The position numbers and the translations under genes are program-made. Positions 46,680-64,000 of a DNA stretch of 64,000 nucleotides are shown here, in pieces. The DNA is from an uncultured Pseudobdellovibrionaceae bacterium (GTDB taxonomy: Bacteria > Bdellovibrionota > Bdellovibrionia > Bdellovibrionales > UBA1609), in NCBI GenBank assembly GCA_964389375.1, contig CAYMDP010000005.1:765-64764 (forward strand). The letters run 5' to 3'. A model generated the notes under the pieces. That model had not been told where the DNA came from and did no database searches. It was given only the letters and a program-made list of their open reading frames with translations. Each line of letters starts with the position of its first letter. Position 1 is the stretch's first letter.

Positions 46680-46706
46680 TTCCCCAGTCCCCTTACTGAT
46701 TATAGA

Positions 46707-46722
46707 AGCAAAGTTGAGGCCA
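46707..46722 (-). promoter_or_regulatory. Candidate sigma54 (-24/-12) promoter
   Basis: On the minus strand: TGGCCT-CAACT-TTGCT, with GG-N10-GC spacing. It lies about 28 nt upstream of the ATG at 46679. A TATAAT hexamer (46699-46704) follows directly, so sigma70 use cannot be excluded. Confidence 0.4.
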
Positions 46723-47014
46723 AGCAGAGTCCAGAACTGGGCCTTTATAAGGCATCTTAATAACTTAAACTGTCTACAGAGCGCCACCTGCTGAAGACTT
46801 TGACAGAATCAATTCTTCTACATCGCTTTTCAAATCAGAATAAACAAGTGCCCACTAGACTCTGGTCCCAGTGAATTTCCATAAGTTACACTTACCTTAT
46901 TGCGAAGAAAACAAGGGCTCAAAATGAATTTGAAATGCATTTGCAGAGTTAAGTTTAGGTGCATCGGATCAGTTTGAGACTGAGTTATAGTCGTGGGCAT
47001 TTTTACTAATTGTG

Positions 47015-47048
47015 GACCCGGCAAACGAGTTGATAGAGGTGCCGGGTC
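47015..47048 (-). terminator. Hairpin downstream of the lipoprotein gene
   Basis: gacccggca-(16 nt)-tgccgggtc, a 9-bp stem with no U-tract. Confidence 0.3.
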
Positions 47049-47064
47049 AAGTCCGAAAAGTATT

Positions 47065-47625: not shown

Positions 47626-47658
47626 AAGTGACCCCCTAAAAAGCATACAAAGCTATTT

Positions 47659-47674
47659 TGCAAGCTGGGGGCCA
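47659..47674 (-). promoter_or_regulatory. Candidate sigma54 (-24/-12) promoter
   Basis: On the minus strand: TGGCCC-CCAGC-TTGCA, with GG-N10-GC spacing. The predicted +1 is near 47648, giving a leader of about 23 nt with a Shine-Dalgarno before the ATG at 47625. Confidence 0.5.
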
Positions 47675-47816
47675 GCGGGGAGCACTTAAAATCGATGCTG
47701 GGCCTGAATTGGCTGTCTAACTAAAAATTTTGTATAAATGTTGGTGTCTCAAAACTCGAGACAGTGACTCAAAGTGAGACGTCTTCGGGCTGCATTCAGC
47801 TTTGAAGAAGTTGATC

Positions 47817-49037: not shown

Positions 49038-49061
49038 CCTCGGACTCCTAAGCTGAATATT

Positions 49062-49078
49062 TGCGAGATCGCTGCCAA
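49062..49078 (-). promoter_or_regulatory. Candidate sigma54 (-24/-12) promoter
   Basis: On the minus strand: TTGGCAG-CGATC-TCGCA, with GG-N10-GC spacing. It lies about 25 nt upstream of the ATG at 49037. Confidence 0.45.
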
Positions 49079-49176
49079 CGTAGATCATTCTACCCACGTC
49101 AATGCAAGGTCTATGCGAAAGAGAAGCTTGCCGATCGGCACCCTATCTTCTTTTTTTGGCTTATGGCGCCTGTAGA

Positions 49177-50226
49177 TCACTGATTTTTACGGATTTGTTG
49201 GATCAGGCTGCGAACTTGCTTTCGCTTTTCTTCCTCAGATATATGATCCAGCAGAACCTGTTTGATAGTGGCCGTCATGCTGTCAGTTTTCTTTGAGTTC
49301 ATTCCCAGATAAATGGGGTGGTAGGGGATGTAGGGTCCACCGCTAAGTCTAAAGATGACCTTAAGGTATTCCTTAAGTTCATCTTGGTCTAATTTCCATA
49401 GGGATATTTTTTTTGCAAAGGCCTTGATGAATGGAGTCGATTCTTCGATAGGGCGCATTCGAATCCAATATAGATCTACAAGGATTTTTGTTCTAAGGTC
49501 GGAGGACTCTCGGGCCATAAATTCCAAGAATTCGTGAAGGATCTGGAGATCGCCAATGACCTTTATAAAAGATTTTTGTTTCTTTGGGCTGAGTTTCCGC
49601 ATGGACTTTACAAAGAGACTGGCTTCTATTCTCAGTCCACTAAGGCGTCCTAATCCGTAGTCAAAAATGACTTGAGTTTGACTGAGGTCGAAGCCTTGGG
49701 CCAGCAAATGTTCAGTTACTAAGTACATATGATAAGGGGTCGGCTGATAGTGCCCTGAGGCATCAATCAATTCTGTGATGTGTCCCTGATCAACATTCAT
49801 GGACCAAGCGGCGTAAACAGGTTGGTTGTTGTTAAAAGAAGAGTGGCGAAAGTCTCCAATTTGTCGACTGGACTCTTCGGCCACGGCATAAAGCTTTCCA
49901 ATCGAACCTGGGGTCGAGCTCGGAGCCCAAACTGAAATCATGGTTTCGTCGGTTTGACTGTGAAGGGGCTGATTCGAAGTCAGATAAGTGGCCAATCCGG
50001 ATTTGTCCGGGCCCCACTCGTAGCCAGAGATTTGATGTGGTCCCAGATGGATGATTTTTCCACGATCCCTAACATCCGAATAGAGGATTTCATTTTCAGC
50101 AGCCTTAAGAATGACTTCGCAAGCCCGAGCCTTCAAAGAGGTCTTTGTCTCAGCCCACAGAGGCTGAGAACAGACGGTCATCGTGAAGATAAGGGGAACA
50201 AGTTTTTTAAATCTTAGCCAAAGCAT
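49177..50226 (-). CDS. Secreted hypothetical protein
   Basis: Signal peptide MLWLRFKKLVPLIFTMTVCSQPLWA. No recognisable domain. Confidence 0.55.
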   Translation of the reverse strand: MLWLRFKKLVPLIFTMTVCSQPLWAETKTSLKARACEVILKAAENEILYSDVRDRGKIIHLGPHQISGYEWGPDKSGLATYLTSNQPLHSQTDETMISVWAPSSTPGSIGKLYAVAEESSRQIGDFRHSSFNNNQPVYAAWSMNVDQGHITELIDASGHYQPTPYHMYLVTEHLLAQGFDLSQTQVIFDYGLGRLSGLRIEASLFVKSMRKLSPKKQKSFIKVIGDLQILHEFLEFMARESSDLRTKILVDLYWIRMRPIEESTPFIKAFAKKISLWKLDQDELKEYLKVIFRLSGGPYIPYHPIYLGMNSKKTDSMTATIKQVLLDHISEEEKRKQVRSLIQQIRKNQ

Positions 50227-50350: not shown

Positions 50351-51745
50351 TTAAAGATCGGATTCGGCGGGGCGAAGGCCTTTCTTTTTGATTTTTTCAA
50401 CCAGAGTCGTGCGGTTTAAGCCTAAAAGAAGAGCGGCTTGGTTTCGGTTCCAGCCGGTTTTTTCGAGGGCTCTTAGGATCAAAGCGTTTTCATAGTTATC
50501 AACGGCAGAGTTAAAATCTAATCCGCTGTCAGGAAGCTCGATTTGGTTTCCGGGAAGGGGAGCAGCTTGTGATTTGTAGCGAGGTGGAAGATCCGCAACT
50601 TCGACAATCCCTGAGCCCTTTAAAATTGCAAGGCGCTCGACAAGGTTTTCAAGCTCTCGAATGTTTCCGGGCCAAGAATATTCACACAGCATATTTAGGG
50701 CTTCGGGACTAACGCCTTTAAGTTCGCGCGAACGCGAGCGGTTAAAGCCTTCCATGAAATGATGAAACAAAAGCGGGATATCAGACTTGCGCTCGCGCAA
50801 AGCCGGAATATGAATCGGAATCACATTTAATCGGTAGTAAAGATCTTCTCGAAACCGACCATCTTGCACGGCCTCTTCAAGATTGACATTGCTTGCAGCT
50901 ATGATGCGAACATTCGATCTTTGAGACTTGGCACTGCCAACGGGCTCGAAGCATTTTTCTTGAAGGACTCTTAGTATTTTGACTTGAAGACTTGCGGCCA
51001 TGTCGCCAATTTCGTCTAAAAATAAAGTTCCTGACTCAGCAAGTTCAAAGCGTCCAACCCGATTGCTGATGGCGCCAGTGAATGAACCTTTCACGTGTCC
51101 GAAAAGCTCACTTTCTAAAAGCTCACCAGGAATGGCGCCACAGTTAATTGGAATAAAGGGGCGGGCCGAGCGGTCCGAGTTATAATGAATCGCTTTTGCC
51201 ACAAGTTCTTTTCCAGTTCCGCTTTCGCCAGAAACTAAAACAGTAGAATCAGAGGCCGCAACTTTTTCGATCAGCTCTAAAACTCCGTGAACGGCATCAC
51301 TTTGTCCGATGATATTGTCGAACTGATATTTTTTATGAAGAGCCGATCGCAGTTGTTGGTTTTCGTCTTCAAGTTTTCTATGAGAAAGAGCGCGTTCAAC
51401 AAGGGACAAAATTTCGTCTAAATTGAAGGGCTTCGTTGCAAAATGAAAAGCCCCTTTTCGAGTGGCTTCGATTGCCGATTCGATACTTCCAAATCCCGTT
51501 AATATAATGACTTGGGTTTGTTTGTTCCAAGCCTTCAGTTGAGTCATTAACTCAAGACCATCTCCGTCGGGAAGGCGAAGGTCGACGAGGGCTAGATCAA
51601 TTCCTTTTTCAGTTTGTGAAACCATCTCGGCTTCGGCCTTGGAGGCGGCTGTGACGACCTGGTATCCTCTTCTATCTAGTGCTCTGAACAGTGCGGTTCG
51701 TAGACTGGCTTCGTCGTCAACAATAAGAATTCTTTGAGCCTGCAT
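50351..51745 (-). CDS. Sigma54-dependent response regulator (NtrC family)
   Basis: MQAQRILIVDDE receiver domain, AAA+ module with GESGTGKE and GSFTGA (GAFTGA variant), and a Fis-type HTH (NRNQAALLLGLNRTTL). Confidence 0.9.
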   Translation of the reverse strand: MQAQRILIVDDEASLRTALFRALDRRGYQVVTAASKAEAEMVSQTEKGIDLALVDLRLPDGDGLELMTQLKAWNKQTQVIILTGFGSIESAIEATRKGAFHFATKPFNLDEILSLVERALSHRKLEDENQQLRSALHKKYQFDNIIGQSDAVHGVLELIEKVAASDSTVLVSGESGTGKELVAKAIHYNSDRSARPFIPINCGAIPGELLESELFGHVKGSFTGAISNRVGRFELAESGTLFLDEIGDMAASLQVKILRVLQEKCFEPVGSAKSQRSNVRIIAASNVNLEEAVQDGRFREDLYYRLNVIPIHIPALRERKSDIPLLFHHFMEGFNRSRSRELKGVSPEALNMLCEYSWPGNIRELENLVERLAILKGSGIVEVADLPPRYKSQAAPLPGNQIELPDSGLDFNSAVDNYENALILRALEKTGWNRNQAALLLGLNRTTLVEKIKKKGLRPAESDL

Positions 51746-51889
51746 GCCTCTCCCTTCCTTGGTGCATGAGTTTTCCATCTTGGAAAACATTGTTTTGAGC
51801 GCGAGCAAATCTCAAGATGCCGTCTATTTCATGGTAAGAGAGGAGCTTTGGCGGTGTCAAATTTTCCCGTCAAAATCTTGTCTGACAAC

Positions 51890-53785
51890 TTACAAATCTA
51901 GACGTTGGAGAGAAATTCTTGCCGTGCTGCCCTCAGACTTCTGGGAAAAAAGCTCCAACCTCCCACCATGGTCTGTAATAATTTTTAGGGCCACCGTAAG
52001 ACCTAGGCCTGGATTGGCTCCCGAGCTTTTTGTTGTGAACAAAGGATTGAAGGCTTGACGCAAAACGGACTCGGGCATTCCGCATCCGTTGTCCTTGATA
52101 TTTAAAAACAATTTTGATTTTTCGACTTCAATTTGAATTTGAATTCGACCAACAAAGCGCGGATTTTCAGACATTTTTTGAGAAATTGCTTCGATGGAAT
52201 TATGAATAATATTATTCAGCGCCTGGACTAAAAGGTTAAATTGTCCCTTAATTTCTAAGCTTTCCGCTGGTAAATCAACGTCGATCTGAATGCCCTTAGC
52301 CCGCGAAATCAGTTCGGTAATTTTAAGAGACTGAAGAATCACTTCTTTAAGGTCGAGGTCCTGAAACTCAAGGGCCGAGCTGCGTCTAGCAAAACCCAAA
52401 AGACTTTGGACAATATCCCGACACTTTAAAACTGCGGCTTCCATTTGATCCACATCGGTCCTGCGCGGGTCCGCTTTGGCGAGGTCCATTTTAATCAACT
52501 GAAGAAAAGACAGCATGCCTGCCAAGGGGTTGTTTAACTCATGGGCAATGCTACTGCCGATGGTTCCAATTTCAGCAACCTTTGAGGACTCTAGGACTTG
52601 CCGTTCGAGTTTAAGCTGCTCGGTGATGTCTTCAAATAAAATTAGACTTAAAGGCCTGCGTCCGTCCTCACTGCTCAGGGGCTCTATTTGAATTTCGAAG
52701 CTGCTCATTTTTTCTAAATTCTTTGAAGTTAACTGAATGGATTTCGGCAAAGCGCGAAGTTCTAGATCCGGAACAAAACCCAACAGAGGCGTGAAGCAGT
52801 TTTGACCGATTAAACTTTTAAAGTCTTTTCCAGCGGCCTTGGCAAAGGCTTGGTTGGCTTTAAGAACGTGAAACTCTTCGTCCACCAAACAAAGAGGTCG
52901 TGCAATGGCATCAAAGGTCGACTCCCACTGGCGCTTTAGACTTTCTGATTGTTCAAGCTTGCTCATGCGATCTACGGCTAAGGCGGCGGCATCTGCGATT
53001 TGTTCTAAAAAATTTTTCTCGGCTTTGGTGAAACGTTTGGGTTTGGTTTTCGCAAAATAAATATCTCCCGGAACTTGCTGGCCCAATCGAATCGGAACTT
53101 GATAGGTTGCCGTGTTTTCTGCAAGCTGAGACTGCACCGAGAGATTGCTTAGAGAACGAAAAACGATCTTCACCCAAGACAGATCTAAGGTCTGAGTCAG
53201 AATTCGGTTTAATAAAGATTCCATTTCGCCAACGGATCGCGCCTGATGAACAGCAAGAAGGCAGCTATGAAGAGCCGTGATCTGAGCTTTTGAGCTGCGC
53301 AGTTTGTCTTCAGAAGTTTTAAGGGACTTCAGGCGTTTATTCACCCGCGACTCAAGATCATTGTTTAAAATTTCTAAATTTTCGTTTTGTTCTTGGACGA
53401 CTTTAAGCAGTTCACGATGTTGTCTGTGATAATCGAATTTTTCGAGGGCTTTTTTTAAGACTTCCTCGAGGCCCTCATTTTTAAGGTTCTGTAAAATTCG
53501 AAAAACTTTTTTTTGATTGACCAGCTCAAGGGCTCTCTCAAGGGGGATTTCTTCTGCACACAGGACACGAACTGTATTTGGCGAGACGCGATCAAGTTGA
53601 TCGATAAAATTCTTTAAGCCTGGATCTTTGGGATCTTTTCCGAACACGACAACTGGGATTTTATTTTTTGCGAGAAGTTCTAGGGCCGCTTGGTGGTTGG
53701 GAACAAATTGCACGCCCCAGCACTCAGCCTCGGGAAGTGGTGAGGAAATAATTAAAGCCTGCTCAAAATTTTCTCGCGAGGGCAC
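51890..53785 (-). CDS. Cytoplasmic sensor histidine kinase (receiver-like N-terminus, coiled coil, PAS/GAF-like region, HisKA, HATPase)
   Basis: SIAHELNNPL H-box, and the HATPase motifs NIIHNSIEA, DNGCGM and GLGLTV. No TM helix. GTG start. Confidence 0.85.
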   Translation of the reverse strand: MPSRENFEQALIISSPLPEAECWGVQFVPNHQAALELLAKNKIPVVVFGKDPKDPGLKNFIDQLDRVSPNTVRVLCAEEIPLERALELVNQKKVFRILQNLKNEGLEEVLKKALEKFDYHRQHRELLKVVQEQNENLEILNNDLESRVNKRLKSLKTSEDKLRSSKAQITALHSCLLAVHQARSVGEMESLLNRILTQTLDLSWVKIVFRSLSNLSVQSQLAENTATYQVPIRLGQQVPGDIYFAKTKPKRFTKAEKNFLEQIADAAALAVDRMSKLEQSESLKRQWESTFDAIARPLCLVDEEFHVLKANQAFAKAAGKDFKSLIGQNCFTPLLGFVPDLELRALPKSIQLTSKNLEKMSSFEIQIEPLSSEDGRRPLSLILFEDITEQLKLERQVLESSKVAEIGTIGSSIAHELNNPLAGMLSFLQLIKMDLAKADPRRTDVDQMEAAVLKCRDIVQSLLGFARRSSALEFQDLDLKEVILQSLKITELISRAKGIQIDVDLPAESLEIKGQFNLLVQALNNIIHNSIEAISQKMSENPRFVGRIQIQIEVEKSKLFLNIKDNGCGMPESVLRQAFNPLFTTKSSGANPGLGLTVALKIITDHGGRLELFSQKSEGSTARISLQRLDL

Positions 53786-54499
53786 TTAGGACCGCCTCAA
53801 TATTTTTTTAAAGCCCTCTGCAAATCTAGGCCAGATCTCGGCACTTGGGACGCGCTCGGCTTCTTCGACGCAAATTATGGGCAGCTTGTTGTCCACCCAA
53901 CCATAATGGCTAAGGCTTCCAGGAGTTGGGTAGCCAATCGTATTTTCTATGGGGTAACCCGAGGCCTGGCTTAAGGCTTCGGCATCGCGAAGCGCCGGGG
54001 GCCCAGTTAAAACAATCATCGGCTTCCAAGAGTGGCAGTGAATCACAAGGCGTGGGACCGTTTGTTGAATCAAGTCAACCACAGCCAAAGTTTCTGGTTC
54101 GCTACCGGCTTTGGGGCCTGGAAAATAACGGGACTCCTTGTAGTCCGGGGACCAATTTGAAGAGGGGTAGTTGCGATTCAGGTCGACGCCATTTCCATTG
54201 GTTCTTTGATTCAGCTTAAAGCCATCGATGTTAAGACAGGGAATCACAGCCCAAGGCTGAATTTGATCTTCGGATTCATTGCTTTGGATCAGCCAATTTA
54301 ATAGCTCAGAGGCCAGAGTGACTCCCTCAGGTTCGTCTCCGTGGACTCCACCGATGACGATCACCGGAGAGAGGCCTTTTTTAAACACAAAGTGTCCGCT
54401 GTGAACCAGTTCAATGTTTTGACCTGTTGCGGATTTACACCAGTTTGGATGCCGATTGACTCGCAAGGCTAACCCTGTCCTTTCTTGACCTTTTTTCAA
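53786..54499 (-). CDS. M14-family metallopeptidase-like protein (MpaA/succinylglutamate-desuccinylase-like)
   Basis: VIGGVHGDEPEG (HxxE zinc motif) and DLNRNYP. Its stop abuts the kinase start. Confidence 0.65.
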   Translation of the reverse strand: MKKGQERTGLALRVNRHPNWCKSATGQNIELVHSGHFVFKKGLSPVIVIGGVHGDEPEGVTLASELLNWLIQSNESEDQIQPWAVIPCLNIDGFKLNQRTNGNGVDLNRNYPSSNWSPDYKESRYFPGPKAGSEPETLAVVDLIQQTVPRLVIHCHSWKPMIVLTGPPALRDAEALSQASGYPIENTIGYPTPGSLSHYGWVDNKLPIICVEEAERVPSAEIWPRFAEGFKKILRRS

Positions 54500-55913: not shown

Positions 55914-57800
55914 ATGTGTGGAATTGTTGGCTACCTTGGACCTAAAGATCCGAAACAAATTATTGTCTCTGGCTTAAAGGCCTTAGAGTATCGTGGCTAT
56001 GACAGTGCCGGAGTCGCGATCCTTCATCATGGAAAATTTAAACGGGTTCGCGCCGAGGGCAAGCTTTTAAATCTTGAAAGCCGACTTTTAAACGAAGAGT
56101 TTGATGGTCATCTGGGAATTGGACACACGCGCTGGGCGACCCATGGTCCCCCTTCCGAGCGAAATGCTCATCCTCATTGCGTGGGCGGAGTCAGCATTGT
56201 TCACAACGGGATCATCGAAAACTATTCCGAACTTCGTGAAGACCTGATTGATAATGGATCGATTCTAGAGTCAGATACGGATTCAGAACTTGTAGCTCAC
56301 CTGATTCATCGAGAAGTGAGCGCGGGCAAAGATCTTTTAAGCTCGGTCTTTGCGGTTCTTCCAAAACTTCGCGGAGCCTTTTCGATTCTGGCAGTCAGTG
56401 AAGATCAGCCCGATGAAATGGTGGCCTTTAAAAATGGACCACCTTTGATTGTGGGTGTTGGCGCAACCGAAACTCTGGTTGCAAGTGATATCCAGGCGAT
56501 TATGCCCTACACGCAAAATGTGATTTTTTTAGAAGACGATCAGATCGTACATGCACGCGGTATTCAACTTCAGATGTACTCTCCCGATGGAAAAAAACTT
56601 ACAGTAAAGCCTCGGATGATGGAGTGGAGCCCTGAGCTTGTCGAGAAAAAGGGCTATCCTCATTTTATGTTGAAAGAAATTTTCGAGCAGCCGCGGGCGG
56701 TGGCCTCGGCCATTACTCCACATATTGATCTCGAAAAACATGAGCTGAGTCTGAATAAGATTGGCTTTTCAGCAAATCATATTTCTGAACTTGATCAATT
56801 GGATGAAATGAAAGACCGAATTTTTACCAATCAAGTTTTTGCAGGCATCGAAAGAATTTTTATTGTGGCCTGTGGGACCAGTTTTTATGCAGGCATGGTT
56901 GGGGAGTATTTGATCGAGCGACTGTGTGGAGTTCCAGTTGAGGTGGATATTGCGAGTGAATTTCGCTACCGACATCCAGTGATTCCAAGCAATTCGATGG
57001 TGATCGTAATTTCTCAAAGTGGAGAAACTGCGGATACCTTGGCCGCACTCAGACTGGCCAAAGAAGTGGGCGCAAAAGTCTTAAGCATTTGCAATGTGAA
57101 GAACTCTTCTATCGATCGAGAATCTGATGGCCATATTTATATGAAGGCCGGAGTGGAAATCGGGGTTGCCAGCACAAAAGCTTTGACGGCGACCTTGGCC
57201 CTTTTAAATGTGCTGGCTTTGGCAATTGCAAAGGCGCGGGGGAGATTGTCGCACGCGGAAGAAAAGGAAGCGGTTCAAGAATTGTTGGCGACGCCAAGCC
57301 AGATGGAAAAGGTATTGGCCTACGATAAGTTTTTCTCTGAAGCCGCAAGCTCCCTACAAGACTTTAGAGGCTTTTTATACATGGGACGAGGGGCGAGCTA
57401 TGCCATGGCTCTTGAAGGCGCCTTAAAGCTTAAGGAGCTAGCCTATCTTCATGCTGAGGGCTACGCCGCGGGCGAAATGAAGCACGGCCCACTGGCTTTA
57501 ATTGATGAAAAAATGGCGATCGTGATGCTGGCTCCAAAAGATGAGCTTTACGAAAAAACCGTCAGCAATCTAGAAGAAGCCCGAGCTCGTGCTGGAAAGA
57601 TTATTTGTATCGGTACAGGAGAAGACGAGCGGCTTAAAAAAGTATCGCTTCATTATTTGGCCTTGCCTGAAGTGAGTTGGAATTTAAATCCTCTACTTCA
57701 AGTCATCCCTTTGCAGCTTTTGGCCTACCATATCGCCTCCTCCTTAGGTCTAGATGTGGACCAGCCCCGTAACCTCGCTAAGTCCGTGACAGTCGAATAG
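55914..57800 (+). CDS. glmS: Glutamine--fructose-6-phosphate aminotransferase
   Basis: MCGIVGY N-terminal nucleophile, two SIS domains, and the C-terminal ...KSVTVE. Confidence 0.95.
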
Positions 57801-57812
57801 CCTGATTCGACT

Positions 57813-57948
57813 CCTTGTCCGAGAAGTTCAATTTCATTTAATAAGTGTCCGCCTTAGCCGTCGAACATTCTCGGCCCGCCTGCGGCGGTCCTGCGAAACT
57901 AGTCTTCGGCGGGCACTTATTAAATGAAATTGAACTTCTCGGACAAGG
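57813..57948. repeat. Palindromic intergenic element, copy E (forward)
   Basis: 35-bp perfect arms, ccttgtccgagaagttcaatttcatttaataagtg and its complement. The core is aagtgtccgccttagccgtcgaacattctcgg, then ccgcc-tgc-ggcgg, then ctgcgaaactagtcttcggcgggcactt. Confidence 0.9.
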
Positions 57949-58080
57949 CATTGGTCTAGTTAAGGGTCCAGGCGGTCTAGATCTGGACCCGCCGACAAGC
58001 CCTTTAAGCTTAGGTTTTCCCTCAATTTTATCGATACATACATAGATGTATTGAATTTAAAACTGACGGAGTTGTGTTCT

Positions 58081-59550
58081 ATGTCTTTTGATTATCGAAA
58101 GAACAAAGAAGGATCCCACGCGGATAGCTTTTGGACGTCCTATTCCGATTTGTTTCTGGGATTGTCTACGATCTTTTTGCTTCTGTACGTTGTCTCTAGT
58201 TTGAGAAACGGCACGGAAGGAATCCGAAGTATGATCGAAAATAAGCGCCTCAGCACTGAGGTTCAGGATTTAAAAAATCAGATTCAAGCTTATGAGGCCA
58301 TTCGCTCGGACTACATGAAAAAAGAGGCAAGCCAAAGCGAAATCCAAGAGTACACCGAGTTGATGGATAAGCTGACTCTTCTTCAGGAAGAAGCCAAAGA
58401 CGAGAACGAGCGCCTGATGAGAGAGGCCATGGAGAATAAATCCAAAGAGGCGGCTTTAAACAAATATCAGCAGATGGTTCGAAATGTCATCAATGCCAAC
58501 AAACTCGCCAAGACAAAGATCACCTCACGTGATGATATCATTGGTGATCAAGATCAAGAGCTCAGTCAGCTAGATCGCGAAATTCAGGAAAAAAAGAAGC
58601 TGATCGAAGAAGGGGATCGTAAGATTGCCGAGGCCAACGCGACTCTCGAAAAGAAGATCGCAGATCTAGATCGCGCGCGAAAAAATAACAAACTGACGGC
58701 AAAAAAATATCGTGAAAGTGTTGAGCAGTTAAAGGCGCAAAACGAAAACCAAATCTCAGCACTTGAAGAAAAAAATAGCGCATACCAAAAGCAGTTGGCT
58801 GAAACTCAAAGCCAGTTGCAAGAAGTTGGCGGTCAACTTCGAGATACCGAAGGAAAGTTGATTGCAAAGCAAGGCGAAGCTGAGGGTTTAAAAAAGCAGG
58901 TGGGTGGCCTTTCTGGTCAGCTTCAAAGCACCAAAGGTCAGTTGGACAGCACTCGTGGAGAACTTGCAAAGGCAAAAGCTGAACTGGATGCACGTAAAAT
59001 GGTGGCGAAAGAAATTAAATCCGGATTGGCAAGGGCAGGAGTTAAAGCGGATGTAGATATGCAGTCTGGTGAAGTGGTCATCGATTTTGGTGATGCCTAC
59101 TTTAAGTCGGATTCAGCAAAGCTGAATGAGCAGATGAAGAACATCCTACAAAAAGCCATGCCCGCTTATTCGAAGTCTTTATTGGGCAATCCTAAGATTG
59201 CCAACAAGATTTCCGCAGTTGAGGTGATCGGATTTGCATCGCCAATATATCAAGGAAAGTACATTAACCCCCATTCTTCGGATCCCAAGGATCGTGAAGC
59301 CTTAAAATATAATATGGATCTAAGTTATCGCCGAGCGAACGCCATCTTTAAGCAGGTCGTTGATGGAAAAAGTATGGACTTTGAATACCAAAACGAACTG
59401 ATTCCATTAATGAAGGTTTCGGGACGAAGTTTTCTAGAGGTTTTTAAGACCAATCGGGACATCGCCTCAAGCGAGGATTTTTGTAAGGTGAACGACTGTA
59501 AGAAAACACAAAGAGTAATAATTCGTTTTAGCATGGATAATAAAAAGTAA
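58081..59550 (+). CDS. MotB-like protein: TM helix with a conserved Asp, long coiled coil, OmpA/MotB-like C-terminal domain
   Basis: FWTSYSDLFLGLSTIFLLLYVV resembles the MotB plug/TM region; the Asp codon is at 58147-58149. About 270 aa of coiled coil follow, and the C-terminus has VIGFASP...DLSYRRANAI. I prefer the ATG at 58081; the ORF track starts at the TTG at 58051. Confidence 0.65.
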   Translation: MSFDYRKNKEGSHADSFWTSYSDLFLGLSTIFLLLYVVSSLRNGTEGIRSMIENKRLSTEVQDLKNQIQAYEAIRSDYMKKEASQSEIQEYTELMDKLTLLQEEAKDENERLMREAMENKSKEAALNKYQQMVRNVINANKLAKTKITSRDDIIGDQDQELSQLDREIQEKKKLIEEGDRKIAEANATLEKKIADLDRARKNNKLTAKKYRESVEQLKAQNENQISALEEKNSAYQKQLAETQSQLQEVGGQLRDTEGKLIAKQGEAEGLKKQVGGLSGQLQSTKGQLDSTRGELAKAKAELDARKMVAKEIKSGLARAGVKADVDMQSGEVVIDFGDAYFKSDSAKLNEQMKNILQKAMPAYSKSLLGNPKIANKISAVEVIGFASPIYQGKYINPHSSDPKDREALKYNMDLSYRRANAIFKQVVDGKSMDFEYQNELIPLMKVSGRSFLEVFKTNRDIASSEDFCKVNDCKKTQRVIIRFSMDNKK

Positions 59551-59562
59551 GGAGAGATCGCT

Positions 59563-60498
59563 ATGCAGGAATCCATTTCTATAAATCAGATGATCCAGTG
59601 GTTCATCTACCTCTTGCCCTACGTCATGGGTGGGGTATTTGCGGTGGCGCTTGTGATGAGGGGTCTGATCTATTTTACCGTTCGGCGACACGAATGGTTT
59701 GCCCGCGAATTTGAGCGACGAGTGAATCGCTACGTCGATGGGGAGACCCCTGGAAAAACAAAGGGTGTGTCTTTCTATATATTGGCAAAACGTATGCTAG
59801 AGCGAACCTATTACGAGACTTTCGAAATTCGTGACCGCTCGACGCGCAGAAAGCCAGATAAAGTCATGGCGACAAGTGATCGTGTATTTTTAATTAAGCC
59901 AGGTTGTGCTTGGTTGGTTAAAGACATTCTTAAGCAGCTAAAGTTTTTGCGCTGGACTGATGATACTCCCAAATTACTAAATATCACTAAAGCGACTTTT
60001 ATGCACAACCCCTGCTTTAACCGGGTTTTTGGAATCATTCCGATTGGTCCAACCAACGATCTACTTAATATTCTTCCAGGACTTTTTGTGGTCGCTGGAA
60101 TCTTGGGAACCTTTTTGGGTATCAAAGGTGGTCTAACTTCTCTGGGAACAATGAACCTGGCGGATTTAGAAATGACCAAAAATGTGATGGACGCCTTCTT
60201 AAATGAAATCGCTTTTGCGATGGCCACTTCAATTGTGGGGATTACATTTTCACTATTGCTTCACTTGTGGAACACAGTTTTTTCTCCAGAAAGGGTATTT
60301 GTTTCGATGATCGATCGTTTTGAGAGCTCTTTAGATCTTCTTTGGTATCGCAGCGATAACAATGATTTTCCCTCTGCAGAACGACCTTTTGATGAAAGTC
60401 GAGATCCTCTCGAGGCTCTGGCTGAGCAAGCCTTGGACCTTGAAGTGGCTCGAAGTGGACACAGTCGAGAGGATTTCGTCAAACCGAAGGCCTCTTGA
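59563..60498 (+). CDS. MotA/TolQ/ExbB-like channel protein (3 TM helices)
   Basis: N-terminal TM helix (WFIYLLPYVMGGVFAVALVM), a soluble loop of about 130 aa, then LPGLFVVAGILGTFLGI and AFAMATSIVGITFSLLLHLWN. The last two match the MotA_ExbB signature region. Confidence 0.6.
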   Translation: MQESISINQMIQWFIYLLPYVMGGVFAVALVMRGLIYFTVRRHEWFAREFERRVNRYVDGETPGKTKGVSFYILAKRMLERTYYETFEIRDRSTRRKPDKVMATSDRVFLIKPGCAWLVKDILKQLKFLRWTDDTPKLLNITKATFMHNPCFNRVFGIIPIGPTNDLLNILPGLFVVAGILGTFLGIKGGLTSLGTMNLADLEMTKNVMDAFLNEIAFAMATSIVGITFSLLLHLWNTVFSPERVFVSMIDRFESSLDLLWYRSDNNDFPSAERPFDESRDPLEALAEQALDLEVARSGHSREDFVKPKAS

Positions 60499-60519
60499 GG
60501 GATATAAAGGATATGAAAT

Positions 60520-63066
60520 TTGGCTAAGCCCCTGAACTGTTTTCTGATTGAGATGCTGGAAGGCGCAGATGTGGCCCGTAGGGTCATTGACCGCAATCCC
60601 TTTTTGATCGGACGCTCTCTTGAGGCGGCCCTCCCCATTGCCGAAGCTTCGGTCAGTCGAAATCATTTAATGGTTAAGAACAAAAAGGGTGAGGTTTGGA
60701 TCTCGGATCAAGCCTCGACTCACGGAACTTTTTTGAATGGCGAGAAGATTGAAGCCAACAAGTGGATCAAAGTTGAACCTAAAGACTTTGTTCGTCTTGG
60801 CAAGACCGGTGTATTGTTAAAATTTTCTGCAGTTGAAAGAATGGTCTCTCATGACTTCATCGAGGGCCATCCAGATATTCCTGAAATCCAAAAAGAATCC
60901 ATTTTAGATGTCCTTGATGGCGCTCGATCGGATGCAGAAAAATTGGTCCGAGCGGCTCGAGACATTCACGACCAAGTTATTCATAAAGCCGAGGGTGACG
61001 CAAAGGCCATCGAGCAAGCTGCAGAAGTTCGAGAACAAGAGCTTTTAGCCGCGACAGAAACTAAGGTCCTTCAATATAAAGCAAAGCTTCTTGAAGAGGC
61101 CCAAAAAGAAATCGCAAAACTTCATGAGCCAGCAAAGGCCGAGGCCATTGCGATCAAGCAGAGGGCTGAAGAAGAGGCCGGCAGGCTTCTAAATGAGTCA
61201 AGACTTCAGGCTAAGAACGAGGCCGAAGAGCTAATTTCCTCGGCCAAAAAGGCTGCAAAGGAAGAAGTCCTAGCCTTAAAATCCAAGGCGAAAGTTGAAG
61301 TCGAAGAGGAGAGGGCGAAAGCGAAAGAAGAGATTGATGCATTAAAATCTAGAGTCGATGAGGAAGTCAAAAAGCTACGGTCCAACATTCAAGCCGAAGT
61401 AAAAAGTCTAAGGTCTGAAGCTCAGGAAGAAGTCCAAAAGCTTAAAGATCAGGCCAAGCTTGATATTGAAAGTGATCGACAAAAAATGATGACCGAGGTC
61501 CATCGGCAGCTTGCGCCTCTTCGCCAAGAAAAGGACTCCACACTAGCGAAGGTCGAAGAAGCAAAAAAAGAGCTTAAAGAGCTTCAGGATTTGATTCAAA
61601 AGCAGAAAAAGTTAGCCCAAGATGAAATCGCGCTTGAACAAGATGCCGCAAGAACGGCACTTGAGCTTGAACGAGAAGAGCAAGAGCTTCGTCTTAAAAC
61701 TTTGATCTCAGATAAGACCGAAGAGTGGGAGCGACAAAAAAAGTTAAAAGAAGAAACTCTTCAGGTCGATATCCAAACCAAGACTTTTGCCTTTGAAAAA
61801 ATAAAAATTCAAAGAGAAGAAGAAATTAAGGTCCTGAATCAAACCCTTGAAAAACTAACACCTCAGTGCCATGAGCTTTCACGTTCTTTGGCAGAGCTTC
61901 AAAATGGCCTACAAAGTCTTAGCGCTGAGAAGCAAAAACGTGAAGCCGAAGTTATAGATCTAAAGGCAGAACTTAGTGATATGGGCCAAAGAAAAGAAGA
62001 CTTGACCACAAGTCTTAGTGAACTCGAAAAAAAGATATCGGTCTTAAGCCAGTCGCGCTCAGAGTTAGAAGACTCTCTTAGAGAAGAAAAAATTCAGACA
62101 AAAAAATTGCTGGCTGAAGAAAGTCAGCGCAGAGACCAAGAGCTTAAGGCCCTGGTTGAGAAACAAAACAAAGAACTACACGAATTAAAACGCGTTCAGA
62201 TTGAAAGTTTACAGCGTGAGCGACAGATGGCGATCGAGGGTTTTAAAGAAGAGCGAGACCAATTGTCTTCAGAGATTTTAAGGATTTTATCAAAGGCTCA
62301 AGCTGCGGGCAGTCCGATTTCTTCGGATCTTTCTGGTTTAAAGAGTCAGATTTCTGGAAGCCTTGAAAAAGCTGGATTGTCCTTAGAGATTACAGGAGAA
62401 GTCGGCGACAGCGGAATTCAAAGTTCTAAAAAGAAGTGGCAAAGAGCGCAACGACAATTCCTTGCTCAAGGAATAGCGATGGGTCTTCTTCTTTTTGGTT
62501 TAGCCCGGTACGGCTACGATCAATTTATCGCGGACCCAAATCCAATGCAGACCATGGCCGAAGAGCAAGCGAAACGAATTCAAGAGGATTTAGCAAATCG
62601 ACGCTTTGATCCGGCACAAGACGCTGAGCTTCGCGAAACCTTTCGAGATGCCGTTATTTATACTAAGGGATTTACGGACATCTATTTAAGGCAAGACTTA
62701 AGGGATCAATTTAGAAAAGAACTTGTTGATTACAATCTTAGACAGTGGCGCATTGAAGAAGAGCGTTCGATTCAAGTTCTAGCGATGGTTCAAACCCTAG
62801 TGGAGTCCTTAATTGAGGCTAAAGCTGCGATTCATCCGGACTTCGTAGAATTGGGTTTAGAGAAGATGGAAAAGATGGAAACCGAAGTCGTAGAGCGTAT
62901 GGTTGAAACTCTGGGGTCTGAGGTTAGATTTGAAGCCTACAAGCGTTTTGAGCGTAAGTTTTTTGAAACCTCTATGGTCGAAGTAAGAATGCCTGCAGCT
63001 GGGGATGACCTTGAGTCTAAGACCGAAACAGAAGTCAACAGTGAAGTAGACAACGAAGATGAGTAG
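60520..63066 (+). CDS. FHA-domain protein with a ~540-aa charged coiled coil, one TM helix and a C-terminal domain
   Basis: IGRSLEAALPIAEASVSRNHLMV...STHGTFLNG (FHA). The TM helix is FLAQGIAMGLLLFGLARYGY. The start is a TTG with an AAGGA Shine-Dalgarno. Confidence 0.75.
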   Translation: MAKPLNCFLIEMLEGADVARRVIDRNPFLIGRSLEAALPIAEASVSRNHLMVKNKKGEVWISDQASTHGTFLNGEKIEANKWIKVEPKDFVRLGKTGVLLKFSAVERMVSHDFIEGHPDIPEIQKESILDVLDGARSDAEKLVRAARDIHDQVIHKAEGDAKAIEQAAEVREQELLAATETKVLQYKAKLLEEAQKEIAKLHEPAKAEAIAIKQRAEEEAGRLLNESRLQAKNEAEELISSAKKAAKEEVLALKSKAKVEVEEERAKAKEEIDALKSRVDEEVKKLRSNIQAEVKSLRSEAQEEVQKLKDQAKLDIESDRQKMMTEVHRQLAPLRQEKDSTLAKVEEAKKELKELQDLIQKQKKLAQDEIALEQDAARTALELEREEQELRLKTLISDKTEEWERQKKLKEETLQVDIQTKTFAFEKIKIQREEEIKVLNQTLEKLTPQCHELSRSLAELQNGLQSLSAEKQKREAEVIDLKAELSDMGQRKEDLTTSLSELEKKISVLSQSRSELEDSLREEKIQTKKLLAEESQRRDQELKALVEKQNKELHELKRVQIESLQRERQMAIEGFKEERDQLSSEILRILSKAQAAGSPISSDLSGLKSQISGSLEKAGLSLEITGEVGDSGIQSSKKKWQRAQRQFLAQGIAMGLLLFGLARYGYDQFIADPNPMQTMAEEQAKRIQEDLANRRFDPAQDAELRETFRDAVIYTKGFTDIYLRQDLRDQFRKELVDYNLRQWRIEEERSIQVLAMVQTLVESLIEAKAAIHPDFVELGLEKMEKMETEVVERMVETLGSEVRFEAYKRFERKFFETSMVEVRMPAAGDDLESKTETEVNSEVDNEDE
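61255..61485 (+). repeat. Seven tandem 11-residue (33-nt) repeats inside the FHA/coiled-coil gene
   Basis: The seven units are AKEEVLALKSK, AKVEVEEERAK, AKEEIDALKSR, VDEEVKKLRSN, IQAEVKSLRSE, AQEEVQKLKDQ and AKLDIESDRQK. Confidence 0.7.
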
Positions 63067-64000
63067 TGGACCTGCAGATCTGAATCAGTTGAATGAAACC
63101 GTCTCTGAGCTGAAGAGCTTTTCATTCTTCAGTGGATTTCCTGAAGAACTCCTCACCTCCTTTGCAGAAATGGTACAAAAGGTTCAATTCGATAAAGGTC
63201 ATTTGCTTTTACAGCAGGGCGAAAAAAACGAATCTCTTTATTTTTTACGAGAGGGAAAGCTCTCTGTAGAGGTCGACGGCGAAATGGTGTCCGAACTGAC
63301 TGTCCCGGGCGAAGTTGTCGGCGAGATGAGTCTGATCAGCCGCAGAGCCGTCACAGCAAGTGTCAGAGCTCAGACCGAGGTTTCGGTTTTCCAGGTCAGC
63401 GAAAGTCAACTGGCACATCGGCCCGAAGATGAGCGGAATCGCTTTCAGCATCTTCTTTATCGGGTCTATGCAAGTGTTCTGGCTGGTAGACTGAGTCGAA
63501 CAAATGATAAGGCCAAACGCTTTGAAATTGCCAATAGGCAACTTGAGGCCGCTCACGAATCCTTAAGACTAATGAATGAGAATCTTCAAACTGAGATCGG
63601 AAGACGTTCACAAGAATTGGTGCAAAAGGTTTTTAAATTGACCGAAACGCACCTTCAGCCGGCACAAAGTACTTTGTCTCGATGGGCCCAGAGCTCTGGA
63701 ATTGCCATCGATTCGGCGGAAGTCCATAAACTTTTGCGTTCTATTAGTGAAGTCGTGGATTTCTTAAAGCCAGTGGCAGAGTTTGGACAAAAGGGGAGAG
63801 CCTTAGAGTCTAGGAAGGTCCTTTTGTTTGATACCAATAAAAAACAGCAGACCGTGGCCCGATTGGCCCTGGGCGGAACAGGAGTGGACTTGACCATGGC
63901 CTCTTCTGTTGAAGAGCTTGAGACGGCCTTAAATCAAACGGAATTCGATCTTATTTTTTGTGATGCCGAAGTCAAAGAAGCCGTTGAAAAGGCGATCGCG
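63059..64000 (+). CDS. Cyclic-nucleotide-binding domain protein with a coiled coil and a receiver-like domain (3' end outside the window)
   Basis: Not in the ORF track because no stop falls inside the window. Hand translation gives MSSGPADLNQLNETVSELKSFSFFSGFPEELL...GEKNESLYFLREGKLSVEVDGEMVSELTVPGEVVGEMSLISRRAVTASVRA (cNMP-binding fold). Later comes KVLLFDTNKKQQTVARLAL...FDLIFCDAE (receiver-like). The ATG overlaps the upstream stop by 8 nt. Confidence 0.7.
   Translation, partial: MSSGPADLNQLNETVSELKSFSFFSGFPEELLTSFAEMVQKVQFDKGHLLLQQGEKNESLYFLREGKLSVEVDGEMVSELTVPGEVVGEMSLISRRAVTASVRAQTEVSVFQVSESQLAHRPEDERNRFQHLLYRVYASVLAGRLSRTNDKAKRFEIANRQLEAAHESLRLMNENLQTEIGRRSQELVQKVFKLTETHLQPAQSTLSRWAQSSGIAIDSAEVHKLLRSISEVVDFLKPVAEFGQKGRALESRKVLLFDTNKKQQTVARLALGGTGVDLTMASSVEELETALNQTEFDLIFCDAEVKEAVEKAIA

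What the first reader, a model, noticed from the sequence alone, without database searches (positions are those of the whole stretch)
58081..64000. Stator-like operon: coiled-coil MotB-like/OmpA-like protein, MotA/ExbB-like channel, giant FHA coiled-coil membrane protein and a cNMP-binding/receiver protein
Four genes are tightly packed, with gaps of 12 nt, 21 nt and an 8-nt overlap. (1) A MotB-like protein keeps the channel Asp (SYSDLFLGL). It inserts about 270 aa of coiled coil before an OmpA/MotB-type peptidoglycan-binding-like domain. (2) A 3-TM protein carries the MotA/TolQ/ExbB signature helices. (3) An 848-aa protein has a cytoplasmic FHA domain, about 540 aa of charged coiled coil, one TM helix and a C-terminal domain of about 190 aa. 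(4) A cNMP-binding protein has a coiled coil and a receiver-like domain, and continues beyond the window. Several features do not match flagellar MotAB, Tol-Pal, ExbBD, the Agl gliding motors or Zorya: the B-before-A order, the coiled coil on the B subunit, and the FHA and cyclic-nucleotide partners. In Zorya the long tail is on ZorA and ZorC/ZorD follow. This looks like an ion-driven envelope-spanning module gated by phosphothreonine and cyclic-nucleotide signals. Its function is unknown.
Basis: partly seen in the sequence, partly recalled or inferred. Interest (0 to 1): 0.8.

Follow-up and report, generated by a model that had tools for sequence, protein, structure and literature searches.

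The report
ZorAB-like motor operon of Bdellovibrio relatives
Predatory Bdellovibrio-type bacteria carry a conserved, unstudied three-gene operon for an ion-driven membrane motor related to the Zorya anti-phage motor, with a long stalk to the cell wall and a phosphothreonine-reading partner; the neighbouring cyclic-nucleotide gene is not conserved with it.

Summary
The four genes, their spacing and their domains are as described. The pair is real. g2 is a 3-TM MotA/ExbB-superfamily protein, and its only profile, sequence and fold matches of note are ZorA. g1 is a ZorB-like protein with the channel Asp, about 275 Pro-free heptad residues, and a ZorB-type peptidoglycan-binding domain. Every residue shown to matter in E. 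coli ZorAB (ion filter, Pro kink, Asp, PG-binding motif) is invariant in about 70 species.

The order g1-g2-g3 (B, A, FHA/coiled-coil/TM protein) is kept in all 80 related genome loci. All are from Bdellovibrionota-type organisms. It corresponds to Bd1167-Bd1169 of B. bacteriovorus HD100, whose three proteins rise and fall together and are highest in attack phase.

The cNMP gene and glmS are never adjacent elsewhere, so cyclic-nucleotide gating is not supported.

It fails the Zorya membership test: no ZorA tail, no effector genes, and no patchy or mobile distribution. It is also not MotAB, Tol or Ton.

Best reading: a lineage-specific, cell-wall-anchored 5:2 ion-driven motor with an FHA adaptor, serving an envelope or predation function rather than defence. 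The output is unknown. No paper was found that recognises it. Pfam's PF28082 'ZorA-like_t1' covers the A subunit.

The parts
58081..59550 (+). g1: ZorB/MotB-like B subunit (489 aa), orthologue of B. bacteriovorus Bd1167
   Evidence: PADLOC ZorB1 PDLC00609 1.8e-27. PDB sequence match only to type II ZorB 8vvi_A, covering both the TM and the C-domain. 915 homologues found; those with a source name are named after Bdellovibrio-type organisms and are mostly annotated 'microtubule-binding protein'.
58129..58203 (+). g1 N-terminal TM helix with channel Asp D23 (FWTSYSDLFLGLSTIFLLLYV)
   Evidence: Hydropathy. D23 present in 73/73 orthologues. Aligns with YWISLSDMMTSLMMLFLLI of ZorB 8vvi_A.
58231..59058 (+). 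g1 periplasmic coiled-coil stalk (residues about 51-326). The membrane-proximal part is conserved; the middle varies in length.
   Evidence: Pro-free and heptad-like. Conservation 0.54-0.78 for residues 81-160 and about 0.33 for 161-280. Indels in this region give g1 lengths of roughly 455-631 aa across loci; the start calls are mechanical and some are over-extended.
59059..59547 (+). g1 C-terminal ZorB-type peptidoglycan-binding-like domain with an invariant Cys pair
   Evidence: Profile A5 hits only ZorB 8vvi_A, 5e-4. Y410, N411, L414 and R418 have the same spacing as EcZorB PG-binding residues Y151, N152, L155 and R159 (PMC11946911) and are present in 74/74 orthologues. C468 and C473 are present in 74/74.
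59563..60498 (+). g2: ZorA-like A subunit (311 aa, 3 TM, no tail), orthologue of Bd1168
   Evidence: PADLOC ZorA1 5.9e-14; NCBIfam ZorA_2 8.3e-14, below cutoff. PDB profile hits are ZorA only. AF2 model pLDDT 74.6; top Foldseek hits are ZorA 8qyk/8qyd/8qyy/8qyh/8vvn, then ExbB and TolQ. Precomputed Pfam PF28082 'ZorA-like_t1'.
60061..60267 (+). g2 TM2-TM3 hairpin carrying the ion-path residues P172, G173, I180, T183, E215, S223
   Evidence: In the HMM alignment to EcZorA, EcZorA P136, I144, T147 and S184 (functional residues in PMC11946911) map to g2 P172, I180, T183 and S223. P172, G173, T183, E215 and S223 are present in 71/71 orthologues.
59602..59658 (+). g2 TM1, followed by a very conserved cytoplasmic helical domain (residues 33-165)
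   Evidence: Hydropathy. Conservation 0.62-0.82. Helices in the AF2 model.
60520..63066 (+). g3: FHA / long coiled coil / TM / periplasmic helical domain protein (848 aa), orthologue of Bd1169
   Evidence: Follows g2 in every locus where the contig reaches. Length mostly about 700-1180 aa.
60586..60819 (+). g3 FHA domain with canonical phosphothreonine-binding residues
   Evidence: Pfam FHA 6.1e-12. G31, R32, S46, H49 and G69 are present in 67/67 orthologues; R47 in 66, T70 in 65 and N73 in 62.
60850..62439 (+). g3 cytoplasmic charged helical/coiled-coil region (about 530 aa), poorly conserved and variable in length
   Evidence: 65% E/K/Q/R/A/L, with heptad-like segments. Conservation 0.07-0.22.
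62458..62517 (+). g3 predicted TM anchor (FLAQGIAMGLLLFGLARYGY), preceded by a K/R-rich stretch (N-in)
   Evidence: Hand-computed Kyte-Doolittle mean of about 1.3, below the 1.5 threshold used, which flagged no TM in g3. It aligns with hydrophobic segments scoring >=1.6 in most orthologues. The sequence itself is poorly conserved.
62518..63063 (+). g3 C-terminal (predicted periplasmic) all-helical domain of about 150 aa plus an acidic tail; no known family
   Evidence: Alignment A2. No Pfam or PDB sequence match. AF2 model of low confidence, pLDDT 54.
63059..64000 (+). g4: cNMP-binding / coiled-coil / receiver-like protein, cut by the window end. It is a neighbour, not part of the conserved module.
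   Evidence: cNMP_binding 1.1e-15; Response_reg 0.061. Absent next to the module in all related loci.

Best explanation
g1-g2-g3 is a self-contained operon, restricted as far as seen to Bdellovibrionota-type organisms. It encodes a ZorAB-type ion-driven motor with a dedicated partner.

Shown: g2 has the 3-TM MotA/ExbB/ZorA fold with an intact Thr/Ser ion filter, Pro kink and TM3 Glu. g1 has the single TM with the essential Asp and a ZorB-type peptidoglycan-binding domain with the PG-binding motif intact. g3 has an FHA domain competent for phosphothreonine binding. The three genes are always together, in this order.

Inferred from the solved ZorAB, MotAB, ExbBD and TolQR complexes: g2 forms a pentamer around a g1 dimer. 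The g1 C-domains anchor to the cell's own peptidoglycan. Ion flow past D23 turns the g2 ring relative to g1.

The module differs from Zorya in two ways. The B subunit carries a long periplasmic coiled-coil stalk of variable length between the channel and the PG anchor. The A subunit has no cytoplasmic tail.

The membrane-anchored g3 has a conserved periplasmic domain, a long cytoplasmic coiled coil and an FHA tip. I propose, as speculation, that it is the output or regulatory arm that links the motor to a phosphorylated cytoplasmic protein.

The module shows vertical-looking conservation, sits in housekeeping neighbourhoods and lacks any effector. In B. bacteriovorus the three proteins co-vary and are enriched in attack phase. 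I therefore read it as serving an envelope or predatory-lifestyle function rather than phage defence, for example envelope mechanics or sensing during attack or entry, or force generation. The cNMP gene downstream shows no conserved link to the module and looks like a local neighbour.
For: Family assignment: only ZorA/ZorB profiles match; no MotA, TolQ or ExbB NCBIfam hit; PDB sequence hits are ZorA/ZorB only; fold: ZorA first, then ExbB/TolQ.

Functional residues are invariant in about 70 species: mapped and PMC11946911.

Operon conservation. Only these three gene families are shared by 78-82 of 82 loci; the next real family, FtsY, is in 20.

Taxonomic range. All named sources are Bdellovibrio-type, apart from three MAG bins labelled Bacillota or Actinomycetota. 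There are 378 cluster representatives with E <= 1e-3 in 1.84 billion proteins.

Not mobile: no hit in viral contigs. Housekeeping neighbours glmU, glmS, a histidine kinase and a sigma-54 regulator.

Expression: Bd1167, Bd1168 and Bd1169 were all detected. Their log2 profiles are parallel: highest in attack phase, lower by 0.7-1.2 at 3-4 h, recovered by 6 h (PMC12546842 Suppl. Data 1). The Bd1167 transcript is down at 30 min of predation (PMC2797640).
Against: No complex model or stoichiometry could be computed. The g3-motor contact is inferred from gene linkage only, and the g3 TM is weakly hydrophobic and poorly conserved.

If the g1 stalk were a straight parallel coiled coil of 275 residues, it would be about 40 nm long. 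That is far longer than the roughly 9 nm between inner membrane and PG quoted for E. coli (PMC11946911), so the geometry of PG anchoring is unexplained.

The His of the ZorB/OmpA 'GH(T/S)' motif is Phe here.

Bd1167-69 do not appear in the held Tn-seq tables of predation genes, so there is no phenotype.

The attack-phase enrichment is modest (about 2-fold).

Whether every Bdellovibrionota genome has the module was not tested.
Confidence: 0.6

Rival explanations
1. It is a new type of Zorya anti-phage system. ZorAB-like sensing of envelope damage would be relayed through the FHA/coiled-coil protein instead of a ZorA tail and ZorC/D/E effectors.
For: ZorA and ZorB are the closest relatives by profile, sequence and fold. 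The residues needed for Zorya defence are conserved.
Against: There is no ZorA tail (75 residues after TM3). PADLOC finds nothing for g3. No nuclease or other effector is co-conserved. The module is present with the same order in all 80 loci of one lineage, at 59-77% identity for A, rather than patchily. There is no match in viral contigs, and the neighbours are housekeeping genes. Scores are far below the NCBIfam Zorya cutoffs.
Confidence: 0.08
2. It is an accessory stator or scaffold of a motility machine (the sheathed polar flagellum, the gliding apparatus or type IV pili). g1 would be a periplasmic spoke and g3 a cytoplasmic adaptor like the coiled-coil adaptors of myxobacterial gliding.
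For: The proteins peak in attack phase and late in the cycle, like motility functions. TM + periplasmic coiled coil + head-domain proteins are known flagellar scaffolds (FlbB, FlgY; PMC13023049). 5:2 motors drive flagella and gliding (PMC11890865).
Against: No flagellar, gliding or pilus gene is co-conserved next to the block in 82 loci. g2 has 3 TMs and matches ZorA/ExbB/TolQ, not MotA. From my own knowledge, B. bacteriovorus already has three MotAB pairs and AglRQS homologues.
Confidence: 0.15
3. It is a Tol/Ton-like energiser. g3 would play the TolA/TonB role (a single-TM partner docked on the A pentamer) and transmit pmf-derived force to an envelope process such as outer-membrane tethering or division.
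For: g2 has the 3-TM ExbB/TolQ topology and an invariant TM3 Glu. ExbB and TolQ (including TolQRA) structures are the next fold matches after ZorA. g3 has a conserved periplasmic domain. One distant A/B locus, L088, is followed by PBP, M15 peptidase and beta-lactamase genes.
Against: g1 is not ExbD/TolR-like: it has a PG-binding domain. The long helical part of g3 is cytoplasmic and its TM is C-terminal, the reverse of TolA/TonB. The g3 TM is not conserved and shows no evident SHLS-like motif. There is no TolB/Pal-like partner nearby.
Confidence: 0.1
4. g1 and g3 are essentially structural coiled-coil (cytoskeleton-like) proteins, as Bd1167 was described in 2010 ('crescentin-like'), and the channel features are relics.
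For: Most of the length of g1 and g3 is coiled coil. Bd1167 was interpreted this way in PMC2797640. In the proteome its normalised TMT value is about 4-fold above Bd1168, though TMT values are not comparable between proteins.
Against: The coiled coils are the least conserved parts. The TM Asp, ion filter and PG motif are invariant in about 70 species, which implies selection on the motor function. By MotB/ZorB topology and its conserved Cys pair, g1 is periplasmic, not cytoplasmic.
Confidence: 0.05

Closest known systems
ZorA/ZorB core of the Zorya anti-phage systems (E. coli type I, PDB 8qyd; Shewanella type I, 8vvn; Sulfuricurvum type II, 8vvi)
   Same: Best and nearly only matches by profile, sequence and fold. 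Same 3-TM A subunit with Pro kink, Thr/Ser ion filter and acidic TM3 residue. Same B subunit with a TM Asp and a PG-binding domain carrying the Y-N-x-x-L-x-x-x-R motif and disulfide-forming Cys.
   Different: The A subunit has no long pentameric cytoplasmic tail. The B subunit has about 275 residues of coiled coil between TM and PG-binding domain, whereas ZorB has no linker. The gene order is B-A. There is no ZorC/D/E/F/G; the partner is an FHA/coiled-coil/TM protein. The distribution is lineage-wide rather than patchy. Scores are far below the curated Zorya cutoffs.
ExbB-ExbD-TonB and TolQ-TolR-TolA
   Same: 3-TM A subunit topology with a large cytoplasmic domain between TM1 and TM2. A third, single-TM elongated partner is encoded alongside. 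These are the next-best fold matches.
   Different: The B subunit has an OmpA/ZorB-type PG anchor instead of the small ExbD/TolR domain. The partner's long helical region is cytoplasmic and carries an FHA domain. No TonB_C or TolA III domain is present.
Flagellar stator MotA-MotB / PomA-PomB
   Same: PG-anchored B subunit with a channel Asp. An ion-driven 5:2 rotary principle is presumed.
   Different: MotA has 4 TMs and a FliG-interacting loop. Pfam MotA_ExbB scores only E 0.17 here. The gene order is reversed. There are no flagellar neighbours.
GldL-GldM / PorL-PorM (type 9 secretion and gliding motor)
   Same: The B-type subunit carries a long periplasmic extension, suggesting transmission of force across the periplasm.
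   Different: GldM is built of globular domains and lacks a PG-binding domain. No sequence or fold match was seen here.

Membership tests
MotA/ExbB/TolQ/ZorA - MotB/ExbD/TolR/ZorB superfamily of 5:2 ion-driven motors | A subunit with the conserved TM hairpin (Pro/Gly kink, Thr/Ser facing the B helix) | tested here: met
   Profile hits, PDB profile hit and Foldseek. P172, G173, T183 and S223 invariant.
MotA/ExbB/TolQ/ZorA - MotB/ExbD/TolR/ZorB superfamily of 5:2 ion-driven motors | B subunit with a single N-terminal TM helix carrying the essential Asp | tested here: met
   D23 lies in the TM at 23-41, aligns to the ZorB Asp and is present in 73/73 orthologues.
MotA/ExbB/TolQ/ZorA - MotB/ExbD/TolR/ZorB superfamily of 5:2 ion-driven motors | A5B2 assembly and ion-driven rotation | not testable with these tools
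   No multimer prediction was available. This needs AlphaFold-Multimer, cryo-EM and mutant physiology.
Zorya anti-phage defence system | ZorA with a long C-terminal cytoplasmic tail, present in all Zorya types and required for defence (PMC11946911) | tested here: not met
   g2 is 311 aa, with about 75 residues after TM3. Orthologues are 300-317 aa.
Zorya anti-phage defence system | Adjacent effector genes (ZorC+ZorD, ZorE, or ZorF+ZorG) | tested here: not met
   PADLOC finds no family for g3 and only cNMP-domain-driven hits for g4. No further gene is co-conserved in 82 loci.
Zorya anti-phage defence system | ZorB with a PG-binding domain and the essential Asp | tested here: met
   However, a coiled coil of about 275 aa is inserted, which ZorB lacks.
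Zorya anti-phage defence system | Scores above the curated family thresholds (NCBIfam ZorA/ZorB models) | tested here: not met
   ZorA_2 scores 51.4 bits against a cutoff of 100. ZorB1 scores 22.1 against 400.
Zorya anti-phage defence system | Sporadic, strain-variable distribution typical of defence systems, and protection against phage | tested here: inconclusive
   The module is found with the same order in all 80 loci of one lineage, and there are no viral-contig hits. This argues against a sporadic distribution. Genomes lacking the module were not counted, and phage protection is untested.
Flagellar stator MotAB/PomAB | 4-TM MotA that passes the MotA_ExbB model, motA-motB order, flagellar gene context | tested here: not met
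   3 TMs. Pfam MotA_ExbB E 0.17, 12 bits against a cutoff of 22.9. Gene order is B-A. No flagellar neighbours.
Tol-Pal / Ton systems | ExbD/TolR-type B subunit and a TolA/TonB partner with an N-terminal TM and a periplasmic extended domain | tested here: not met
   g1 has a PG-binding domain and matches ZorB only. g3 has a cytoplasmic FHA domain and coiled coil and a C-terminal TM.
Pfam PF28082 'ZorA-like_t1' | Match to the family model | tested here: inconclusive
   A precomputed PF28082 hit is listed for many close homologues of g2 and is named. The model is not in the local Pfam copy, so g2 itself could not be scored.

The most novel reading that the evidence does not exclude
Bd1167-69-type operons encode a previously unrecognised functional class of 5:2 ion-driven motor, specific to predatory Bdellovibrionota. 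A ZorAB-like rotor would be tethered to peptidoglycan through a 35-60 nm coiled-coil stalk and wired to Ser/Thr-kinase signalling through an FHA-tipped cytoplasmic coiled coil. It would convert ion-motive force into mechanical work or mechanosensing during prey attack, entry or envelope remodelling. This would make Zorya a defence-specialised offshoot of a broader motor family.
Probability: 0.3. Interest if true: 0.85.

Novelty: new variant of a known kind. Interest (0 to 1): 0.6.

Why it matters
Five functional classes of 5:2 ion-driven motors are known: flagellar, Ton, Tol, gliding/T9SS and Zorya. Each one opened a field.

This module would show that the Zorya-type motor core also exists as a conserved chromosomal operon of a whole predatory lineage, with a different architecture: the stalk is on B, A has no tail, and the partner is an FHA protein.

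It offers a genetically tractable entry point (Bd1167-Bd1169 in B. bacteriovorus HD100) into two questions. One is what ZorAB-like motors sense or drive outside defence. The other is how Ser/Thr phosphorylation connects to envelope mechanics in Bdellovibrio.

It also corrects misleading annotations ('microtubule-binding protein', 'crescentin-like', 'Large Ala/Glu-rich protein', 'hypothetical').

Tried and rejected
1. cNMP gating. tblastn, ORF clustering and phmmer over 82-88 loci found the cNMP gene next to the module only in the window, plus one divergent gene in the distant locus L085. Rejected as part of the system.

2. 'ZorA tail supplied in trans by g3'. I looked at distant A variants of 511-626 aa. 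Their extensions are Pro/Glu/Ala-rich and look disordered, not coiled-coil tails. Their loci lack an FHA gene. The idea gains no support and stays speculative.

3. g3 C-domain identity. The protein search returned only 2 hits because of the word-index limit. Pfam and PDB profile searches found nothing. With a shallow alignment it gave pLDDT 54, so no fold search was run on that model.

4. Literature. Searches for Bdellovibrio with FHA/MotA, ZorA/ZorB with Bdellovibrio, 'ZorA-like', accession numbers and Bd1166-69 found no functional study. There were only passing mentions in PMC2797640.

5. Tn-seq tables of PMC6561027. The held files have no entry for Bd1167-69.

6. Promoter and terminator scan of 57700-64000. 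Counts were not above shuffled expectation.

7. Inverted repeat upstream of g1. It has no Rfam match and no second copy in the window.

8. Relative abundance of B versus A from the proteome. Not interpretable, because TMT values are not comparable between proteins.
Full report
**Observation**

The region holds four same-strand ORFs exactly as described:
- g1: 58081-59550
- g2: 59563-60498
- g3: 60520-63066
- g4: 63059 to beyond 64000

The gaps are 12 nt and 21 nt, and g3 and g4 overlap by 8 nt. Orthologues of g1 all begin MSFNY, so ATG 58081 is the start, not the upstream TTG at 58051.

Hydropathy and heptad analysis gives the following.
- g1 has one TM (residues 23-41, containing D23) and no proline between residues 42 and 360. 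It has a heptad-like segment at 51-326 and two Cys only in the C-terminal domain.
- g2 has three TMs (14-32, 167-185, 211-235).
- g3 has heptad-like segments through residues 122-598.

The hydrophobic segment of g3 at 647-666 is weak: a hand-computed Kyte-Doolittle mean of about 1.3, below the scan threshold. It aligns with stronger TM segments in most orthologues and is preceded by a Lys/Arg-rich stretch.

Pfam confirms FHA in g3 (6e-12) and cNMP_binding in g4 (1e-15). The receiver match in g4 is weak and truncated by the window end.

**What the pair is**

Generic Pfam models barely see the pair: MotA_ExbB E 0.17, OmpA 1.4e-3, MotB_plug 3.4e-3. Zorya-derived models do see it:
- PADLOC ZorB1 scores 1.8e-27 on g1 and ZorA1 scores 5.9e-14 on g2.
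- NCBIfam ZorA_2 scores 8.3e-14, though far below the curated cutoff. No MotA, TolQ or ExbB NCBIfam model matches at all.

Against all PDB sequences, the g2 family profile hits only ZorA chains (8vvn, 8qyd series, 8vvi). g1 and its C-domain profile hit only type II ZorB 8vvi_A, for both the TM segment and the periplasmic domain.

An AF2 model of g2 (pLDDT 74.6) finds ZorA first by Foldseek (8qyk/8qyd/8qyy/8qyh/8vvn, probability 1.0). ExbB and TolQ follow. No MotA chain appears among the 50 matches listed.

I used the HMM alignment and the mutational data of Hu et al. (PMC11946911). EcZorA Pro136, Ile144 and the ion-filter residues Thr147 and Ser184 map to g2 P172, I180, T183 and S223. ZorB Asp26 maps to g1 D23. 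The ZorB PG-binding residues Tyr151, Asn152, Leu155 and Arg159 map, with identical spacing, to g1 Y410, N411, L414 and R418.

Across about 70 orthologues, conservation is as follows:
- D23 is present in 73/73.
- The PG motif and a Cys pair (C468/C473) are present in 74/74.
- P172, G173, T183, E215 and S223 are present in 71/71.

Selection is therefore acting on the ion path and the PG anchor, not just on helices.

**The unit and its range**

Homologues of g2 and g1 number about 900 each. Those with a source name are annotated 'hypothetical' or 'microtubule-binding protein', and the names are those of Bdellovibrio-type organisms.

An exhaustive profile search of 1.84 billion cluster representatives finds only 378 with E <= 1e-3. 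The few distant ones that carry names are also Bdellovibrionota or Bdellovibrionales.

A scan of one genome per species found 110 species. The 80 loci returned are named as Bdellovibrio, Pseudobdellovibrionaceae, Bacteriovoracaceae, Bdellovibrionales, Oligoflexia and similar. Three MAG bins carry Bacillota or Actinomycetota labels. The closest locus (77% for g2) is a Pseudobdellovibrionaceae MAG.

In every locus where the contig reaches far enough, the order is g1-g2-g3, with a typical gap of 9-12 nt between g1 and g2. Clustering all flanking ORFs shows that only these three families are shared: 78, 82 and 81 of 82 loci. The next real family, FtsY, occurs in 20.

glmS and the cNMP gene are never adjacent elsewhere. 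A sensitive search finds a cNMP-like ORF in only one of 88 loci. The fourth gene of the finding is therefore a local neighbour.

More distant A/B pairs (L084-L088) keep B upstream of A but lack the FHA gene.

Conservation is uneven:
- g2 is 0.6-0.8 throughout.
- In g1, the TM is 0.89, the membrane-proximal coil 0.54-0.78, the middle coil about 0.33 with many indels, and the C-domain 0.55-0.76.
- In g3, FHA is 0.3-0.5, the coil 0.1-0.2 and the C-domain about 0.4.

The canonical pThr-binding residues of the g3 FHA domain are conserved: G31, R32, S46, H49 and G69 in all 67 orthologues, and R47, T70 and N73 in 62-66.

**Link to B. bacteriovorus**

The HD100 orthologues are Bd1167 (Q6MNS1, 'microtubule binding protein'), Bd1168 (Q6MNS0, uncharacterised) and Bd1169 (Q6MNR9, 'Large Ala/Glu-rich protein').

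In a 2025 TMT proteome, all three were quantified and follow the same course. They are highest in attack phase, lower by 0.7-1.2 log2 units at 3-4 h, and recovered by 6 h (PMC12546842).

The three genes are not in the held tables of the 109J Tn-seq study.

No paper in the searchable library recognises a stator-like or Zorya-like pair here. The only trace of recognition is the precomputed Pfam family PF28082, named 'ZorA-like_t1'.

**Mechanism**

Shown: the sequence features of an ion-conducting A/B motor, a PG anchor, a pThr reader and obligate gene linkage.

Inferred from solved ZorAB, MotAB, ExbBD and TolQR structures: a g2 pentamer around a g1 dimer, with torque generated by ion flow past D23 when g1 is fixed to peptidoglycan.

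Two architectural changes set it apart from Zorya.
- In ZorB, the PG-binding dimer is fused to the TM helices without a linker and sits about 9 nm from the membrane (PMC11946911). In g1, about 275 residues of coiled coil intervene, and 240-420 in orthologues. That would be 35-60 nm if straight, so the stalk must fold back, lie along the wall or act as a long tether. Its variable length argues against a fixed ruler.
- ZorA's signalling tail is absent.

g3 is the only other conserved component. It has a conserved periplasmic domain that could meet the conserved membrane-proximal part of the g1 stalk or the g2 loops, a long cytoplasmic coil and an FHA tip. I propose it as the output or regulatory arm, but this is inference from linkage alone. 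Its TM is poorly conserved, which speaks against TolA/TonB-like docking through the TM.

**Defence or not**

The module fails four of the six Zorya features listed in the membership table: tail, effector genes, curated score cutoffs, and patchy distribution (this last only indirectly).

It is found with conserved order and 59-77% identity for A across a whole lineage. It has no relatives in 2.9 million viral contigs. It sits among housekeeping genes here: glmU, glmS, a histidine kinase, a sigma-54 regulator and an M14 peptidase.

I therefore rank a housekeeping or predatory-lifestyle role well above defence. Motility-associated and Tol/Ton-like roles remain open, and no data here separate them.

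**Verdict**

This is a real, conserved three-gene ZorAB-like motor module that the literature searched here does not recognise. It is a new variant of a known kind of machine. The finding's fourth gene and its cyclic-nucleotide gating should be dropped.

Noticed in passing
window 57813-57948: A long, nearly perfect inverted repeat lies in the glmS-g1 intergenic region: 41-nt arms, 98% complementary, 54 nt apart. It is unique in the window and has no Rfam match. It could be an unusually long terminator or attenuator hairpin, or a small mobile-element remnant.
   Followed up: partly
L003:8492-9988 (B. bacteriovorus; RefSeq WP_157865652.1 = P0391): The RefSeq model of the B. bacteriovorus B subunit (498 aa) starts at MGLSTIFLLLY. 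This cuts off the conserved N-terminus MSFNY...FWTSYSD that holds the channel Asp, and it helps explain why the protein is annotated 'microtubule-binding protein' rather than MotB/ZorB-like.
   Followed up: partly
L085:5638-6147 (-), next to a distant B/A pair at L085:6321-8930: A 169-aa cNMP-binding protein is encoded divergently upstream of a distant member of the B/A family. This is the only other cNMP gene near the module in 88 loci. It is probably a coincidence, but it is a second independent adjacency.
   Followed up: partly
L088:7737-10863: In one distant locus, the A-like gene (549 aa) is followed by a PBP transpeptidase, an M15 peptidase and a beta-lactamase-fold gene. This cell-wall context is not seen in the main clade.
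   Followed up: no
P0252, P0310, P0318, P0275, P0274, P0331 (loci L084, L086-L088): Distant A-subunit variants of 511-626 aa carry long C-terminal extensions rich in Pro, Glu and Ala that look disordered, instead of a coiled-coil tail. Their B partners range from 197 to 703 aa.
   Followed up: partly
window 58831-58980 (g1 residues about 251-300): The distal part of the g1 coil consists of Gly-containing heptads (TEGKLIA KQGEAEG ... STKGQLD STRGELA). Orthologues expand or contract this region by tens to more than 100 residues. No DNA-level tandem repeat is detectable.
   Followed up: partly
window 50351-53785 (-) and 53786-54499 (-): Upstream, on the opposite strand, lie a PAS histidine kinase (631 aa), a sigma-54-dependent response regulator (485 aa) and an M14 zinc carboxypeptidase-like protein (237 aa). 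They are not conserved next to the module elsewhere.
   Followed up: no
window 45996-50226 (-): Four consecutive ORFs of 193-426 aa have no Pfam match at E <= 1e-5. They sit next to two family-2 glycosyltransferases.
   Followed up: no
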